Shown one piece after another: positions 33,154 to 44,725 of a stretch of DNA of 64,000 nucleotides. Each line of letters opens with the position of its first letter. The stretch's first letter is position 1. The translations under genes were made by a program, and so were the position numbers. Origin of the DNA: Verrucomicrobiota bacterium (lineage in GTDB: Bacteria > Verrucomicrobiota > Verrucomicrobiia > Limisphaerales > UBA11358); assembly GCA_050012035.1 (NCBI GenBank), contig JBEKHY010000003.1, forward strand, positions 104,622-168,621, written 5' to 3'. A model generated the notes under the pieces. It saw only the letters and a list, made by a program, of their open reading frames with translations. It was not told the DNA's origin and made no database searches.

Positions 33154-35238
33154 ATGATTGCAACGAAAGATTCATTCGAATCCGCTGGGGTGGCACAGGC
33201 GTCCCGCCTGTCCGGTGACGCGTCCCGCGTCATCGAATCTGCCCCCCACAGTTCCGACCAGTTACCCAACAGCAAACGCGTGTATGTCGCTGGCAAGATT
33301 CACAAGGACGTCCGCGTGCCCATGCGCGAAATCGAACTGGCGCCGACGAAAGGTTTTAACAGCCAGATTGAAGTGAACGAGCCGGTGCGTGTTTACGACA
33401 CCAGCGGCCCGTGGGGTGACCCGAATTTCACCGGCACGGTCAAGGAAGGGTTGCCGCCGTTGCGGGAGAAGTGGATTCGTGCTCGTGGTGATGTCAAGGA
33501 ATACGCTGGACGGCCAGTGCAGCCGATTGACGACGGTTATCTCTCGAAAAAACACCGCGGGTTTGGACAGGCGCGGCGACAAGACGAAACACCATTACAC
33601 CTCGGCAAGGCTGCCCTGCCAAAACGGAAAATTCTACGCGCAAGCAAGGGGCATCCCGTCACGCAGCTTTGGTATGCGCGCCAGGGCATCATCACGCCGG
33701 AAATGGAATTCATCGCTATCCGCGAGAACCTGCGCGTAGGACAGGCTTCCAGCCTGTCTCCATCATCCCAGCCTCGCCTTGGCGATCTTACGCGGGACAA
33801 TGTCCGCAACGACCTGAACAAACAGCACGCCGGTTCGAGCCAAATCGCCGGGAGCGCCGGCTTCCAGCCGGCGAGTTTCACCCCTTCCGTTTTCCGCCGT
33901 TTTCCGCAGCGCATCCCTGCCGAAATCACCCCGGAATTCGTCCGCTCCGAAGTCGCCGCTGGCCGCGCCATCATCCCGGCCAACATCAATCACCCCGAAC
34001 TCGAGCCGATGATCATCGGGCGCAATTTCCTCGTGAAAATCAACGCCAACATCGGCAACAGCGCCCTCGCCTCGTCCATCGAAGAGGAAGTCGAGAAAAT
34101 GCGCTGGGCCACCAAATGGGGCGCGGACACCGTCATGGACCTGTCCACCGGCAAAAACATCCACGCCACCCGCGAATGGATTTTGCGCAACTCGCCCGTG
34201 CCCATCGGCACCGTGCCGATTTACCAGGCGCTGGAAAAAGTCGGCGGCAAGGCCGAGGACCTTACCTGGGAAATCTACCGCGACACCCTCATCGAACAGG
34301 CGGAGCAGGGGGTGGATTATTTCACCGTTCACGCCGGCGTGCTGCTGCGTTTCATTCCGCTTACCGCGCGTCGCATGACCGGCATCGTGTCACGCGGCGG
34401 GTCCATCCTCGCCAAATGGTGCCTCGCACATCATCAGGAAAATTTCACCTACACGCACTGGGACGAAATCTGCGACATCATGGCCGCCTACGACGTGGCC
34501 TTCAGCATCGGTGACGGCCTGCGGCCCGGCTCGATTGCCGACGCCAACGACGAGGCACAGTTCGCCGAACTCAAGGTGCAAGGCGAACTCACCGAGCGCG
34601 CGTGGGCCAAAGGCGTGCAAGTGATGAACGAAGGCCCCGGCCACGTGCCGATGCATTTGATCGAGGAAAACATGCACAAGCAGCTCGAGTGGTGTCATGA
34701 GGCGCCGTTCTACACCCTCGGCCCGCTCACCACCGACATCGCGCCCGGCTACGACCACATCACCAGCGGCATCGGCGCGGCGATGATTGGCTGGTACGGC
34801 TGCGCGTTGCTGTGCTACGTCACGCCCAAGGAACATCTCGGCCTGCCGGACAAGAAAGACGTGAAAGACGGCGTCATCGCCTACAAAATCGCCGCGCACG
34901 CCGCCGACCTGGCCAAAGGCCATCCCGGCGCGCAATACCGCGACAACGCGCTTTCAAAAGCCAGGTTTGAATTCAGGTGGGAGGACCAATTTAATTTGTC
35001 GCTCGATCCAACAACGGCTCGTGAATTTCATGACGAGACACTTCCTCAAGATGGGGCGAAAACGGCTCATTTCTGCTCCATGTGTGGACCTCATTTTTGT
35101 TCGATGAAGATTACGGAAGATGTCCGGAAATATGCAGCCGAACAGGGCATTGCCGAAGAAGAAGCGTTGAAAAAGGGTATGGAAGCGAAGTCGAAGGAGT
35201 TCATAGAAAAAGGTGCGGAGCTTTACGCGAAGGCGTGA
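33154..35238 (+). CDS. thiC: Phosphomethylpyrimidine synthase ThiC
   Basis: Has NSKRVYVAG...[43 protein letters not shown] and the C-terminal [11 protein letters not shown] Fe-S motif. Start is uncertain: ATG 33154 or GTG 33109. Confidence 0.95.
33192..33230 (+). repeat. Two adjacent arm-TCC-arm palindromes within the thiC 5' coding region
   Basis: GGCACAGGCGTCCCGCCTGTCC followed by TGACGCGTCCCGCGTCA. Same architecture as the elements at 24654 and 33741. Confidence 0.6.
33738..33873 (+). repeat. REP-like palindromes in frame inside thiC (ACAGGCTTCCAGCCTGT and CGCCGGCTTCCAGCCGGCG)
   Basis: The palindromes lie at 33741-33757 and 33855-33873. They encode GQASSLSP... and ...SAGFQPAS..., in a segment between the conserved IAIRENL and ITPEFVR blocks. 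Confidence 0.65.
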
Positions 35239-35256
35239 GTCTGCTAGATTAACGCC

Positions 35257-35457
35257 GTGAAGACGACGCTGCCTGAACCTGAAATTGTCACGCGCAAGGG
35301 CAAGCCCGTTTCCGTCATTCTGCCGATTGCCGATTACGAAGAATTGCTGGAACGGGCCGAAGATGCCTCTGACATTGCCTGGCTGAAGGCTGCCCGCAAA
35401 AAGCCGCGACAATATCGTCCACTCGAAGATTATCTGGCCGGACGCCGTCGCCGCTGA
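35257..35457 (+). CDS. Phd/YefM-type antitoxin
   Basis: 66 aa (GTG start). The pattern ...VTRKGKPVSVILPIADYEELLERAEDASD is the typical Phd/YefM N-terminal fold pattern. Sits 2 nt before a RelE/ParE gene. Confidence 0.8.
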   Translation: MKTTLPEPEIVTRKGKPVSVILPIADYEELLERAEDASDIAWLKAARKKPRQYRPLEDYLAGRRRR

Positions 35458-35459
35458 CC

Positions 35460-35714
35460 ATGTATCGCGTGTTCCTTGAACGCTCGGCCGAACGCGACCT
35501 TGGCCGTCTTTCCTCCGAGGTTCACGGCCGCGTTATTGCGGCAATTCAGGAACTCGCGAACAATCCGCGCCCGCCCGGTTGCCGCAAATTGGTTGGCAGC
35601 AAAAACGACTGGCGCATTCGCGTGGGCGACTACCGGGTGATTTATGAAATTGCCGATACCATCCGCGTGGTGCGCGTCAACCGCGTCCGCCACCGCCGTG
35701 AAGTGTATCGCTGA
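35460..35714 (+). CDS. RelE/ParE-family toxin
   Basis: 84 aa. Has ...AERDLGRL...[42 protein letters not shown]...[12 protein letters not shown], the hallmark RelE/ParE pattern. Confidence 0.85.
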
Positions 35715-35721
35715 ATTTGAT

Positions 35722-35856
35722 ATGAAAATCACCGAAGACGTCCGCAAATACGCCGCCGAACAAGGCATCGCCGAGGAAGAAGCCATAAAAAAGGGCATGG
35801 AAGCCAAGTCGAAGGAGTTTGTAGAAAAAGGCGCGGAGGTTTACGCGAAGATGTGA
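35722..35856 (+). pseudogene. Displaced duplicate of the thiC 3' end (last 44 codons plus stop)
   Basis: Encodes [44 protein letters not shown]. The functional thiC C-terminus (35104-35238) is [44 protein letters not shown], so 40/44 aa are identical, with many synonymous differences. Confidence 0.85.
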
Positions 35857-35866
35857 TATGTCAGCA

Positions 35867-43461: not shown

Positions 43462-43677
43462 TTACTCCGCCTTCGGAGATTTTTTGCGGGCCGACAACAA
43501 ATGCGCGCCTTTGAGCAGGCGGCAGAAGTCCTTTTTGCTGGTGACGATTTTCGTGCCGGCCTTGCTGGCGAGGCTGGCCAAGGATTTGTATTCCACTTCG
43601 AGCCGTTCCAACCGCACGATGCGGACGTATTCCCCGCCCTGTTTCCAGATCTGGCCTTGTTGCAGTTTCACCGCCAT
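43462..43677 (-). CDS. Hypothetical small protein
   Basis: 71-aa ORF with no competing gene. No motif recognised. Confidence 0.35.
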   Translation of the reverse strand: MAVKLQQGQIWKQGGEYVRIVRLERLEVEYKSLASLASKAGTKIVTSKKDFCRLLKGAHLLSARKKSPKAE

Positions 43678-44033
43678 GTAGTTTTGGGGAGTAATCTGTC
43701 CCTCCTGATTTTTGTGTCAGGAGAGACAGCGATGAGCCGCCGGCTACTTTTTCTTGCCGGCGGCCTGCTTGTCGGCGATGGCCTGTTTTTTCATCTGGTC
43801 GGCACTGTTGGCTTTGGCCTGTTTCTGGTTCGATTTCTTCTGGTTCGACTTCGGGGATCTATCGCCCATAATTTTGATTTTCTTTCGCGGATTGATTCAC
43901 CTGCGGCATGTCAGTTTCTCCGAAGGGACGCCCATCATGCCTGCCGGGGCGGTCATTGTAAATGATGGACACAAAATCATCCGGCAAAGGCAGCGATCGG
44001 GTTGGAATGATAATCAACGGAATTCTCAGGATT

Positions 44034-44227
44034 ATTGCCCAAAAGATAGTTGCCGATAGTTGTTGCCATCCCGCTGGAACCCGTCACACTTTGCCGGTCT
44101 GTTAGATAGCTTGTCTCTTTCAAGGCATGGTGAATCTTCAAGTGAACCTGGTTCAGTGATGATTTTAAACCCGATGTTCGGGAACAGTCTGTGGAAAGTA
44201 CCGGTTTGTCGGACAGTAAAACATCAC
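44034..44227 (+). promoter_or_regulatory. Conserved leader/5' region of RRM protein gene, copy 1
   Basis: Shares blocks with 45955-46152: gtctgttagatagctt, ggcatggtgaatcttca.gtgaac.tggttcagtgatgattt, cgggaacagtctg, taaaacatcacatgagcaa. Confidence 0.6.
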
Positions 44228-44515
44228 ATGAGCAACAAATTATTTGTCGGGAATCTTTCCTTTGACACCACCGAAAACGACCTGCAGGACGCGTTTGCCG
44301 CGCATGGCACGGTCGTGGAAACCAATCTGCTGATGGACCGGGAAACCGGCCGTCCGCGCGGTTTTGGTTTCATCACCATGAGCTCCGCCGAGGAAGCGCA
44401 AAAAGCCATCAGCGCGCTGAACGGCTCGCAACTGGGCGGCCGCGCCCTCACGGTCAACGTGGCCAAGCCGCGTGAAGAACGTCCGGCCGGCGGCGGTCGT
44501 CGCGAACGCTACTGA
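44228..44515 (+). CDS. RRM-type RNA-binding protein
   Basis: 95 aa. RNP-2 is LFVGNLSF and RNP-1 is RGFGFITM. Gly/Arg-rich tail. Confidence 0.9.
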   Translation: MSNKLFVGNLSFDTTENDLQDAFAAHGTVVETNLLMDRETGRPRGFGFITMSSAEEAQKAISALNGSQLGGRALTVNVAKPREERPAGGGRRERY

Positions 44516-44533
44516 TCCATTTTGGATTTCAGG

Positions 44534-44573
44534 GCGGGGTTCGGTGAAAACCGGACTCCGCCTTTTTATTTTT
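44534..44573 (+). terminator. Rho-independent terminator
   Basis: GGCGGGGTTCGG-tgaaaa-CCGGACTCCGCC (two G:T wobbles) followed by TTTTTATTTTT. Confidence 0.7.
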
Positions 44574-44665
44574 CGGTTCGTCCCAACTGCTCTCGTTTCA
44601 CCAGCACACGCTCGATGCGGCGGTGGGGAACTGGGCGTGGCTGAGAACTGACACCGAAAGTCGGG

Positions 44666-44725
44666 ATGGAACAAAAAGCTCGCGAATTTGTGGGAAAAGG
44701 AGCAGAGGTTTACGCGAAGGCATGA
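44666..44725 (+). pseudogene. Third, diverged relic of the thiC 3' end
   Basis: Encodes [19 protein letters not shown]-stop. The copy at 35800-35856 encodes [19 protein letters not shown]-stop, so 14/19 aa are identical. Confidence 0.55.

What the first reader, a model, noticed from the sequence alone, without database searches (positions are those of the whole stretch)
34950..44725. thiC 3' end is present three times, bracketing a TA cassette and a ~9-kb accessory island: serial integration at the thiC terminus
The last 44 codons of thiC (35104-35238) are repeated at 35722-35856, with 40/44 aa identical and many synonymous changes. The copies are separated only by a Phd/RelE pair.

A third, more diverged relic of the last 19 codons plus stop lies at 44666-44725. 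Between copies 2 and 3 sit the toxSAS-like gene, MerR, an esterase, an AraC remnant, TlpA, an AKR/NADP-oxidoreductase/SDR/cupin operon and an RRM protein gene.

This is the footprint expected when integrative elements target a gene's 3' end and bring their own replacement terminus. Each arrival pushes the previous terminus downstream. The in-use terminus (and the thiC codons from about 34955) looks lower in third-position GC than the upstream thiC body, whereas copy 2 looks host-like. No integrase is visible in the window.
Basis: seen in the sequence. Interest (0 to 1): 0.72.

Follow-up and report, generated by a model that had tools for sequence, protein, structure and literature searches.

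The report
Addiction cassette duplicated the thiC end
A 0.5-kb toxin-antitoxin gene pair sits on the end of the thiamine gene thiC, between two copies of the gene's last 44 codons; this is one case of a recombinase-free, poorly understood insertion mode ("insertion with long target duplication") that the same cassette family shows behind many different genes.

Summary
The thiC terminus occurs three times (35104-35238, 35722-35856, 44663-44725; 0.03 expected by chance). thiC also switches to foreign-looking sequence at about 34945.

Copies 1 and 2 flank a 476-bp phd-parE/relE cassette with no recombinase. In 80 metagenome loci the same cassette family sits in about 45 contexts. A third of loci with readable flanks carry 40-175-bp duplications of the upstream gene's own 3' end: thiC most often, but also hisG and at least eight other genes. 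A hisG empty site was found. This matches "insertion with long target duplication", described for restriction-modification genes and still unexplained.

Here the cassette probably arrived by homologous recombination with foreign DNA that already carried it. Copy 2 is the resident terminus.

Copy 3 is a genuine thiC fossil, but it is fused to the Rieske-flavoprotein gene. The same unit occurs in a relative at 93.5% identity. In the window it is bracketed by its own 42-bp repeat. Much of the "9-kb island" is neighbourhood shared with relatives.

Extra thiC termini enclosing toxin-antitoxin, restriction-modification or defence-like genes recur in Verrucomicrobiota, Beta- and Gammaproteobacteria.

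The parts
32928..33079 (+). TPP riboswitch upstream of thiC
   Evidence: Rfam RF00059, 58.8 bits
33154..35238 (+). thiC (694 aa); resident sequence up to about 34945
   Evidence: Pfam ThiC_Rad_SAM 614.7 bits. Over 34039-34938, identity to six relatives is 0.77-1.00 per 75-nt bin, and 0.93-0.97 in the last bin.
34946..35238 (+). Foreign 3' tract of the in-use thiC, including copy 1 (35104-35238)
   Evidence: GC3 change-point at 34951, 0.76 to 0.48. Identity to relatives drops to 0.65-0.79. The best match for 34951-35103 anywhere in the fetched loci is only 80%.
35239..35256 (+). 18-nt leader of the cassette (GTCTGCTAGATTAACGCC), directly after the thiC stop codon
   Evidence: Conserved across the cassette family. 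No promoter-like or terminator-like site lies between thiC and phd.
35257..35457 (+). phd/yefM-type antitoxin gene
   Evidence: NCBIfam phd_fam 27.4 bits, above the 20.8 cut-off. Pfam PhdYeFM 29.5 bits, just below the 29.8 cut-off.
35460..35714 (+). parE/relE-superfamily toxin gene; its stop codon is the right end of the mobile unit
   Evidence: Pfam ParE_toxin 50.1 bits, cut-off 23. Homology between cassettes in different contexts stops near the stop codon: 0-7 nt after it in most complete comparisons, at most 20 nt.
35715..35721 (+). 7-nt filler (ATTTGAT) between the parE stop and copy 2
   Evidence: Junction view. The same junction type occurs in L110 and L115.
35722..35856 (+). Copy 2: displaced resident thiC terminus, codons M650 to stop
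   Evidence: D3. It is 91% identical to the in-use termini of L011 and L132, against 84-85% for copy 1. GC3 is 0.66.
35867..36865 (-). RelA_SpoT (toxSAS-like) gene; separate low-GC insertion abutting copy 2
   Evidence: Pfam RelA_SpoT; GC 0.40-0.45; PADLOC PDC-S33. No nucleotide match to 35857-37954 was found in L011 or L009 except the 63-nt repeat element, which is present in L009.
37107..44141 (.). Gene block: 67-aa ORF, MerR, esterase, AraC remnant, TlpA-like, AKR, F420 oxidoreductase, SDR, cupin, cupin2, small minus-strand ORFs. Esterase, AKR, cupin and the 41-aa ORF also lie downstream of thiC in relatives.
   Evidence: Pfam. Synteny with L009 and L011. cupin2 is an ORF-bounded unit that in L011 sits between thiC termini.
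44038..44590 (+). Duplicate of the RRM-gene block (compare 45962-46530); includes the RRM1 gene at 44228-44515
   Evidence: D1, D2 and D10.
44590..44631 (+). X: 42-nt copy of the 3' end of the minus-strand 85-aa ORF; left arm of the repeat bracketing copy 3 plus Rieske
   Evidence: D6, 86% identical to 45802-45843. In L009 the homologous tail is single and adjacent to the 41-aa gene.
44663..44725 (+). Copy 3: fossil of the last 20 codons plus stop of a thiC gene (possibly degenerate from 44638)
   Evidence: L011 terminus 2 aligns to 44638-44731 at 83%.
44726..45800 (+). 25-nt spacer plus Rieske-FMN reductase gene (ORF 44751-45827). Fossil, spacer and gene form one unit.
   Evidence: L172 5956-7098 matches 44706-45849 at 93.5%, with a 19-nt thiC fossil before the same spacer. 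Homology with L173 ends at 45800.
45802..45843 (+). X': resident 3' end of the 85-aa ORF (45790-46047, minus strand); right arm of the 42-nt repeat
   Evidence: D6.

Best explanation
Copies 1 and 2 are the two arms of an 'insertion with long target duplication'.

The structure (shown). A promoter-less phd-parE/relE addiction cassette of 476 bp lies exactly between the thiC stop codon and a second copy of thiC codons 650-694.

The cassette family (shown).
- It is a discrete unit of about 0.5 kb.
- Its right end is the parE stop codon.
- Its left end is a 14-31-nt fossil of a thiC terminus about 20 nt upstream of phd.
- It occurs, co-oriented wherever the host ORF could be read, behind thiC and at least nine other genes.
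- Each time it is flanked by a 40-175-bp duplication of that host sequence.
- In six of the ten targets the duplication ends within about 3 nt of the host gene's stop codon; one lies inside a gene.

How it reached this genome (inferred). It was not created in place. It was imported by RecA-type homologous recombination from a diverged donor that already had thiC-cassette-terminus. The left crossover was in thiC at about 34945; the right crossover was in or beyond copy 2. This replaced the last ~290 nt of thiC and left the resident terminus downstream as a decaying relic.

How founding events arise at new genes (inferred, weakest step). They most likely use no dedicated recombinase. One end joins at short microhomology: TGA or ATGA at the cargo's stop codon against ATGA at thiC M650. 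The joining is either homology-facilitated illegitimate recombination of incoming DNA or replicative template switching. Duplication of the host tail keeps the host gene intact.

Copy 3 (inferred). It is a fossil of an earlier event of the same kind, in which the Rieske-flavoprotein gene was placed just after a thiC stop codon. Fossil and gene then reached their present place as one unit, bracketed by a 42-bp duplication of the tail of the 85-aa ORF.
For: Structure and coordinates.

Cassette family:
- 16 of 82 loci are thiC-linked, and the downstream terminus usually starts at codon 649-651.
- There are about 45 different contexts.
- Flank repeats exceed the 99th percentile of a shuffled-pair null in 22 of 67 loci, where fewer than 1 is expected.
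- The repeats are host 3' ends in hisG-like and other genes, including the stop codon in six of ten targets.
- Cassette homology ends near the parE stop, mostly 0-7 nt after it, and begins 0-50 nt before phd.
- The thiC fossil is kept in 17 or more non-thiC contexts, for example L121 and L134.
- thiC-linked copies are scattered over three clades and show at least three junction types.

Empty sites:
- thiC: a single terminus in 67 of 73 species genomes and in L009.
- hisG: L177 has one copy of the 54-nt target.

Import by recombination:
- GC3 and identity breakpoints lie at 34940-34951, which is 150 nt upstream of the duplication.
- Copy 2 is closer to relatives' in-use termini than copy 1 is.

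No recombinase found.

Other cargos between thiC termini: ParE toxin-antitoxin (L050), MazF toxin-antitoxin (L023), D12 methylase (L017), NOV_C ATPase (L013).

Copy 3 unit.

Literature: the same architecture is described for restriction-modification genes, with repeats spanning stop or start sites and no known mechanism (PMC2853133).
Against: - The founding mechanism is not shown. Junction microhomologies are only 2-7 nt, and several junctions have unexplained fillers of 7-200 nt.
- Random illegitimate joining does not predict cargo ends that coincide so exactly with stop codons.
- No donor for the 34946-35103 tract was found; the best match is 80%.
- No relative within the same species lacks the cassette. 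All six population contigs are essentially identical, so the import is inferred from composition and phylogenetic discontinuity only.
- Two thirds of cassette loci show no detectable flank repeat.
- For copy 3, the collinear frame ATPase-thiC ... Rieske-85aa in L172 is also compatible with in-place displacement.
Confidence: 0.6

Rival explanations
1. Serial site-specific integration. Integrative elements with a tyrosine or serine recombinase use the thiC 3' end as attB and carry a replacement terminus in attP. The recombinase genes have been lost or lie outside the window.
For: - The terminus appears in three copies, with the foreign one in use.
- Relative L007 has an island with a Phage_integrase gene downstream of thiC plus a 22-codon terminus relic.
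- Arrays of termini occur in L011, L030 and L172.
Against: - The insert is 476 bp with no recombinase, and none was found among the genes scanned in the window.
- Closely related cassettes (85-90% nt) carry duplications of at least ten unrelated host genes.
- Duplication length and start vary even within thiC: codons 438, 529, 622, about 628, 640, 650, 661 and 672.
- The foreign tract in thiC starts 150 nt upstream of the repeat.
- No terminus repeat was found at the far end of the L007 island within the 10 kb held.
Confidence: 0.1
2. Pure replicative template switching (of the MMBIR/FoSTeS type) creates each insertion. A nascent strand leaves the host gene near its stop codon, copies the cassette from another site, and returns upstream in the host gene at a microhomology. 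Re-copying the tail produces the duplication.
For: - Variable duplication length.
- TGA or ATGA microhomology at several right junctions: L104 and the thiC clade L103/L107/L109.
- Templated-looking fillers.
- No enzyme is encoded in the unit.
Against: - It does not explain why the copied segment ends at the cargo's stop codon in about 45 contexts.
- It does not explain why cargo is always addiction or defence genes, unless by selection.
- It cannot by itself explain the foreign thiC tract in the window.
Confidence: 0.15
3. Mobilisation through an RNA intermediate. A transcript fragment is reverse-transcribed into the 3' ends of transcribed genes in a target-primed manner. Its 3' end is set by A-site cleavage at the parE stop codon; its 5' end is set about 15 nt upstream of the preceding stop codon, the trailing edge of a terminating ribosome.
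For: - A precise 3' end at stop codons for four different cargos: phd-parE, cupin2, the L011 219-aa ORF and the L172 46-aa ORF.
- A left end 14-31 nt upstream of a fossil stop codon.
- Long, variable target duplications.
- Co-orientation with the host gene and no own promoter detected.
- The toxin belongs to the RelE/ParE superfamily.
Against: - No reverse transcriptase is linked to the cassettes.
- There are no A-tails.
- Fillers occur at the junctions.
- The stop-codon coincidence can also come from selection for intact genes plus TGA microhomology.
- Whether the toxin cleaves mRNA at all is unknown: the RelE_StbE hit is below its cut-off.
Confidence: 0.08
4. The downstream 44-codon copy is a functional small gene, a ThiC-tail peptide translationally coupled to parE, and not a relic.
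For: - Copy 2 is an intact ORF starting at ATG.
- In several loci its ATG overlaps the upstream stop codon as ATGA.
- Synonymous changes predominate between copies 1 and 2.
Against: - Downstream copies are frameshifted, truncated or absent in many loci (L030, L110, L115, L114, L095, L098, L154).
- Their starts vary.
- The excess of synonymous changes is expected if the two copies diverged as working thiC ends in different lineages.
Confidence: 0.04

Closest known systems
Insertion with long target duplication of restriction-modification gene complexes (Nobusato et al. 2000, Gene 259:99; Furuta, Abe and Kobayashi 2010, NAR, PMC2853133)
   Same: - Small selfish gene units with no mobility gene.
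- Flanked by direct repeats longer than 30 bp and of variable length, which are single-copy in empty-site genomes.
- Repeats often span a stop or start codon, so the target gene stays intact.
- The mechanism is unknown.
- One thiC case here (L017) carries a D12 methylase with a probable endonuclease.
   Different: - The cargo here is a type II toxin-antitoxin pair.
- One cassette family supplies dozens of events at ten or more targets.
- The unit has defined ends and drags a fossil of its earlier host (thiC).
- Events stack into arrays behind one gene.
- In the searched open-access library, no paper among those returned linked toxin-antitoxin systems with target duplication.
Integrative elements that target the 3' end of a tRNA or protein gene and carry a replacement end in attP (for example SGI1 at trmE, tycheposons; recalled from my own knowledge, not tested here)
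   Same: - A duplicated gene end brackets the insert.
- The in-use end is the imported one.
- Cargo-only units and arrays can accumulate at one site.
   Different: - No recombinase.
- No fixed core.
- Many unrelated targets for one cassette.
- The foreign tract is longer than the repeat.
Homology-facilitated illegitimate recombination during natural transformation (de Vries and Wackernagel 2002; Prudhomme et al. 2002; recalled from my own knowledge)
   Same: - One junction forms by homology in a conserved gene and the other at a 3-8-nt microhomology.
- No element-encoded enzyme is needed.
- It fits the foreign thiC tract and the TGA/ATGA junctions.
   Different: - It is classically reported with deletions of recipient DNA, not duplications.
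- It does not explain ends that coincide with stop codons.
Chromosomal integron cassette arrays carrying toxin-antitoxin genes
   Same: Promoter-less, co-oriented cassettes of about 0.5 kb, often toxin-antitoxin pairs, stacked behind one site.
   Different: - There is no room for an attC site: only 0-8 nt separate the parE stop from the repeat in many loci.
- No intI was found.
- The repeats are host-gene ends.

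Membership tests
Insertion with long target duplication (criteria of Furuta et al. 2010) | Insert flanked by direct repeats longer than 30 bp | tested here: met
   135 nt at 84% identity in the window. Repeats of 42-175 nt in other loci. 22 of 67 loci exceed the 99th percentile of the null.
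Insertion with long target duplication (criteria of Furuta et al. 2010) | The repeat is a single-copy target in a related empty-site genome | tested here: met
   The thiC terminus is single in L009 and in 67 of 73 species genomes. The 54-nt hisG target is single in L177 and double in L112. No empty site was found within the window's own species.
Insertion with long target duplication (criteria of Furuta et al. 2010) | Insert shorter than 20 kb with no integrase, transposase or phage genes | tested here: met
   The 476-bp insert holds only phd and parE. The unit boundaries exclude any further gene.
Insertion with long target duplication (criteria of Furuta et al. 2010) | Cargo is a restriction-modification system | tested here: not met
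   The cargo here is a toxin-antitoxin pair. This is why I call it a variant and not a member of the originally described set. L017 does carry a methylase.
Site-specific integrative element at a gene 3' end | Recombinase gene in the element or adjacent to it | tested here: not met
   No Phage_integrase, resolvase or recombinase hit in the region or in the other ORFs scanned.
Site-specific integrative element at a gene 3' end | Fixed att core: the same crossover point and one target | tested here: not met
   Ten or more different target genes, variable repeat starts within thiC, and a foreign tract longer than the repeat.
Site-specific integrative element at a gene 3' end | Excision as a circle with a joined att site | not testable with these tools
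   This needs read-level data or PCR.
Type II toxin-antitoxin, Phd/YefM antitoxin with ParE/RelE toxin | Toxin matches the family profile above its cut-off | tested here: met
   Pfam ParE_toxin 50.1 bits against a cut-off of 23. NCBIfam RelE_StbE scores only 21.4 against 27.9, so the subclass (gyrase poison or mRNA interferase) is open.
Type II toxin-antitoxin, Phd/YefM antitoxin with ParE/RelE toxin | Antitoxin matches the family profile and lies immediately upstream in the same operon | tested here: met
   NCBIfam phd_fam 27.4 bits against 20.8. Pfam 29.5 bits against 29.8, marginal. There is a 2-nt gap between the two genes.
Type II toxin-antitoxin, Phd/YefM antitoxin with ParE/RelE toxin | Toxicity that is neutralised by the antitoxin | not testable with these tools
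   This needs an expression experiment.
Integron gene cassette | attC recombination site downstream of the ORF, with an intI/attI platform | tested here: not met
   Only 0-8 nt separate the parE stop from the host repeat in L123, L131, L148, L112 and the window. No integrase was found in the window.
thiC-derived sequence (all three copies) | Translates to the conserved ThiC C-terminal tail in frame and ends at a stop codon | tested here: met

The most novel reading that the evidence does not exclude
These cassettes may move as ORF-bounded RNA fragments that are copied back into DNA at the ends of transcribed genes. The 3' end would be cut at the stop codon by a RelE-type activity. The 5' end would be trimmed to the trailing edge of a ribosome sitting on the preceding stop codon. 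That would make them a bacterial analogue of processed-retrogene or LINE-type target-primed insertion, and it would explain 'insertion with long target duplication' in general. The evidence leaves this open. It shows stop-codon-precise right ends for four unrelated cargos, a left end about 15-20 nt before a fossil stop codon, long variable target duplications, and strict co-orientation. None of this tests the idea directly.
Probability: 0.07. Interest if true: 0.95.

Novelty: new variant of a known kind. Interest (0 to 1): 0.62.

Why it matters
Insertion with long target duplication has been an unexplained mode of gene mobility since 2000, known from a handful of restriction-modification cases.

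This work gives three new handles on it:
- One 0.5-kb toxin-antitoxin cassette family supplies dozens of such events at ten or more target genes, with clean junctions, defined unit ends and fossils of earlier hosts. That is enough material to infer and test the mechanism.
- A conserved housekeeping gene end (thiC) acts as a landing pad across phyla, where addiction and defence cassettes stack up.
- Conserved coding sequence on both sides lets such cassettes cross species by ordinary homologous recombination.

In practice, duplicated gene ends of this kind are a searchable signature for recombinase-free gene insertions, which island finders based on integrases or tRNA genes would not be expected to detect.

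Tried and rejected
- Recombinase search. Pfam scans of the finding's region, Pfam scans of ten further ORFs elsewhere in the window, and the annotation of the identical contig found only a weak DDE transposase 13 kb away.
- att sites in relative L007. No terminus repeat lies at the far end of its integrase island within the DNA held.
- Integron cassette idea. Rejected because there is no space for attC.
- Functional mini-ORF idea. Rejected because the downstream copies decay in other loci.
- Further short thiC relics in the 9-kb block. None found.
- Origin of the junction fillers. BLAST against all fetched loci gave no matches.
- Rieske homologues next to thiC among 80 species genomes. None found. 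One was then found through the protein search (L172).
- Donor of the foreign thiC tract. Not found.
- Promoter and terminator scan between thiC and phd. Nothing found.
- Literature. 'thiC integration site' returned noise, because the search matched 'thick'. Searches for toxin-antitoxin plus target duplication returned nothing relevant.
- Simple Campbell-type integration of a circle carrying the terminus, as the origin of the window's structure. Rejected because the foreign tract in thiC is longer than the displaced copy.

Full report
WHAT IS THERE

thiC (33154-35238, preceded by a TPP riboswitch at 32928-33079) ends with the tail [44 protein letters not shown]. These 135 nt recur at 35722-35856 at 84% nt identity, with 40/44 aa identical and 15 synonymous against 4 non-synonymous codon changes.

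A third piece lies at 44663-44725 and encodes [20 protein letters not shown] plus a stop. ThiC tails of 120 relatives show that all three versions fall inside natural ThiC variation. GMEQKAREFV is a common variant. The 19-nt terminus occurs three times in the window against 0.03 expected. Six assemblies from different samples share the layout at 99.95% identity or more.

THE IN-USE TERMINUS IS FOREIGN

GC3 along thiC changes at 34951 from 0.76 to 0.48. In 75-nt windows, identity to six relatives is 0.77-1.00 over 34039-34938 (0.93-0.97 in the last bin). It then drops to 0.65-0.71. The tract 34951-35103 has no match better than 80% in any fetched locus.

Copy 2 is closer to relatives' working termini (91% to L011 and L132) than copy 1 is (84-85%). 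So copy 2 is the resident terminus. The last ~290 nt of the working gene came from elsewhere. That tract is 150 nt longer than the duplicated part.

WHAT LIES BETWEEN COPIES 1 AND 2

Between them are only an 18-nt leader, a phd-type antitoxin gene (35257-35457), a ParE/RelE-superfamily toxin gene (35460-35714) and 7 nt of filler. No promoter-like or terminator-like site separates thiC from phd. The genes of the finding's region and ten further ORFs were scanned and none is a recombinase. The only mobility-type hit is a weak DDE transposase 13 kb away.

THE CASSETTE ELSEWHERE

A metagenome scan with the toxin returned 80 loci.
- Fourteen of them, plus the window and genome locus L030, are linked to thiC. 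The downstream terminus usually starts at ThiC codon 649-651.
- The other loci fall into about 45 unrelated contexts.
- Comparing the 300 nt on either side of each cassette, 22 of 67 loci have a direct repeat above the 99th percentile of a null built from mismatched flanks. Fewer than one is expected.
- These repeats are the 3' ends of the upstream, co-oriented host gene. Examples are a hisG tail (L112, 54 nt, 98% identical) and other genes in L123/L131, L148, L145/L160, L121 (175 nt), L170, L104 and L135/L166.
- In six of ten targets the repeat ends within 3 nt of the host stop codon.
- For hisG an empty site was found: L177 has the 54-nt target once, followed by sequence that in L112 follows the downstream copy.

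UNIT BOUNDARIES

Between cassettes in different contexts, homology begins 0-50 nt before phd. In most complete comparisons it stops 0-7 nt after the parE stop codon, and at most 20 nt after it.

The left part of the unit is a fossil of the last 14-31 nt of a thiC gene (GGTTTACGCGAAGGCGTGA), lying about 20 nt before phd. It is retained in 17 or more non-thiC contexts. L121 sits behind another gene, has a fresh 175-nt duplication, and still carries GNEIYAKV-stop from thiC. The family therefore started behind thiC and has moved repeatedly to new genes.

In a cassette tree, thiC-linked copies fall into three clades interleaved with other contexts. They show at least three junction types:
- ATGA overlap of the parE stop with M650;
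- a 7-nt filler;
- a start near codon 628 in L141.

Several right junctions show TGA, ATGA or TCGATGA microhomology.

thiC AS A GENERAL HOTSPOT

Among 73 species-representative genomes with at least 1.5 kb downstream of thiC, six carry extra thiC 3' fragments: Verrucomicrobiota, Georgfuchsia and a Methylococcaceae. Three of four close relatives reached through metagenome contigs also do (L007, L011, L172).

Fragment starts range from codon 438 to 689. Cargo between the copies is:
- a ParE toxin-antitoxin pair (L050);
- a MazF toxin-antitoxin pair (L023);
- a weak PIN hit plus the phd-parE cassette (L030);
- a D12 methylase with a partner ORF (L017);
- a NOV_C/sacsin-type ATPase (L013);
- an RTX protein (L089).

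L011, L030 and L172 have three termini each, as the window does.

COMPARISON WITH WHAT IS KNOWN

This is the architecture that Kobayashi's group named "insertion with long target duplication". In that class, restriction-modification genes without mobility genes are flanked by long, variable direct repeats. The repeats are single-copy in empty-site genomes and often span a stop or start codon. The mechanism is unknown (PMC2853133).

The library searches I ran returned no paper describing it for toxin-antitoxin cassettes. I therefore file the finding as a variant of that class:
- same footprint;
- different cargo;
- one prolific family with defined ends and host fossils;
- stacking behind a conserved gene.

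HOW THE WINDOW'S STRUCTURE AROSE

A fresh duplication would give two equal copies. Here the copies differ by 16%, and the working gene is foreign from 150 nt upstream of the repeat.

A site-specific crossover predicts a foreign tract no longer than the displaced copy. So does a Campbell-type single crossover of a circle carrying the terminus. The opposite is seen.

The simplest account is allelic import by homologous recombination from a diverged donor that already had thiC-cassette-terminus. The left crossover would be at about 34945 and the right crossover in or beyond copy 2. This step is inferred, because no donor and no cassette-free strain of the species were found.

How founding events arise at new genes is the weakest step. 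I favour recombinase-free joining at microhomology, either homology-facilitated illegitimate recombination of incoming DNA or template switching. Selection would then keep the events that preserve the host gene. What this does not explain is why cargo ends coincide so exactly with stop codons. That holds for phd-parE, for cupin2 (window 42878-43336 against L011), and for the L011 and L172 ORFs whose stops overlap M650 as ATGA. That regularity keeps an RNA-intermediate model alive as a low-probability, high-interest alternative.

COPY 3 AND THE "ISLAND"

Relatives share the frame cation-ATPase (minus strand), thiC, a variable region, then the 85/124-aa ORF (minus strand).
- L009 has a single terminus. 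It has AKR, cupin and the 41-aa ORF between thiC and the 124-aa ORF, and no Rieske gene.
- L011 has esterase, AKR and cupin after its most downstream terminus relic.

Much of the window's 9 kb is therefore shared neighbourhood and not one island. The RelA_SpoT gene (GC 0.40-0.45) is a separate insertion abutting copy 2.

Copy 3 is fused by a 25-nt spacer to the Rieske-FMN reductase gene. In L172 the same fossil-spacer-gene-X' segment recurs at 93.5% identity, against 78-87% for thiC and the ATPase. There it lies 0.65 kb behind that genome's second thiC terminus, and its fossil is only 19 nt long. In L173 the gene sits behind a cupin gene with no fossil, and homology stops at 45800, exactly where X' begins.

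In the window the unit is bracketed by X (44590-44631) and X' (45802-45843). These are two copies of the tail of the 85-aa ORF, which is single in L009 and L172. An adjacent duplication of the RRM-gene block complicates the order of events.

My reading is that the Rieske gene was once inserted right behind a thiC stop codon. The gene with its thiC fossil was then imported into the tail of the 85-aa ORF, producing another long target duplication. The alternative is that copy 3 is an in-place older terminus and the block was imported between it and copy 2. That remains possible, at about 0.3.

VERDICT

It is wrong about integrase-type elements and about a single 9-kb island.

The thing itself is a toxin-antitoxin cassette inserted with a long target duplication and spread by recombination. 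It is part of a cross-phylum pattern at thiC, and of a prolific cassette family that makes an old mechanistic puzzle tractable.

Noticed in passing
window 2113-2143, 2523-2567, 4387-4431, 6142-6171, 7165-7251, 29679-29709, 33089-33119: Tandem heptad repeats (GTCACGT / TGTCACG) recur in intergenic positions. One lies between the TPP riboswitch and the thiC start. Possibly a regulatory or protein-binding array.
   Followed up: no
window 36940-37002 and 43377-43439; L009 13433-13497; L011 17625-17694: A 63-nt element (84% identical between its two copies) brackets the 6.4-kb MerR-to-cupin2 block. In L009 it lies left of the AKR gene and in L011 right of the AKR-cupin block. The block may circularise or recombine at this element.
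   Followed up: partly
window 44038-44590 and 45962-46530: The RRM-protein gene, its terminator and the 5' part of the neighbouring 85-aa ORF are duplicated at 79-86% identity. The order of this event relative to the Rieske insertion is unresolved.
   Followed up: partly
window 35867-36865 (minus strand): A RelA_SpoT-domain (toxSAS-like) gene with GC 0.40-0.45 against about 0.58 around it. Its stop codon lies 10 nt from the stop of copy 2. It matches the PADLOC candidate defence gene PDC-S33. No partner antitoxin was identified.
   Followed up: partly
window 52167-54118: An AAA_15/AAA_21 ATPase plus a DUF4276 protein match the PADLOC candidate defence pair HEC-01A/B.
   Followed up: no
window 48433-48478 (minus strand): Acido-Lenti-1 RNA motif, 49.6 bits, in what looks like a Verrucomicrobiota genome.
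   Followed up: no
window 21344-22306 (minus strand), tRNA-Arg at 22540-22616: A weak DDE transposase-like ORF (IS240/IS1 profiles, below cut-off) sits next to a tRNA-Arg gene.
   Followed up: no
parE 3' ends in L093-L148 and window 35700-35714, compared with thiC 3' ends: The toxin gene ends with GAGGTTTAYCGCTGA (EVYR-stop) and thiC ends with GAGGTTTACGCGAAGGCGTGA (EVYAKA-stop). They share 9-10 nt. This may be chance, or it may contribute to the cassette's preference for thiC.
   Followed up: no
L013 3252-5246, 9683-10177, 20116-19974: A Verrucomicrobiia genome has a complete thiC (78% aa identity to the window). After 4.4 kb of defence-like genes there is a 165-codon thiC fragment that is 94% identical to the window's ThiC. 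A third, inverted terminus lies 10 kb further on.
   Followed up: partly
L172 5073-5350 and 5956-5975; L011 12243-13033: Unrelated small ORFs (46 aa in L172, 219 aa in L011) end in a stop codon that overlaps the ATG of thiC codon M650 as ATGA. This is the same junction as in one phd-parE clade. In L172 the thiC fossil before the Rieske gene starts at the same AG|GTTTACGCG position as the left end of the phd-parE unit.
   Followed up: partly
window 4300-4415 and 7078-7193; window 11788-20721: A 116-nt repeat at 97% identity lies at the starts of two genes with prepilin-type N-terminal methylation motifs. Separately, a 2977-aa ORF contains internal repeats with a period of about 600 nt.
   Followed up: no
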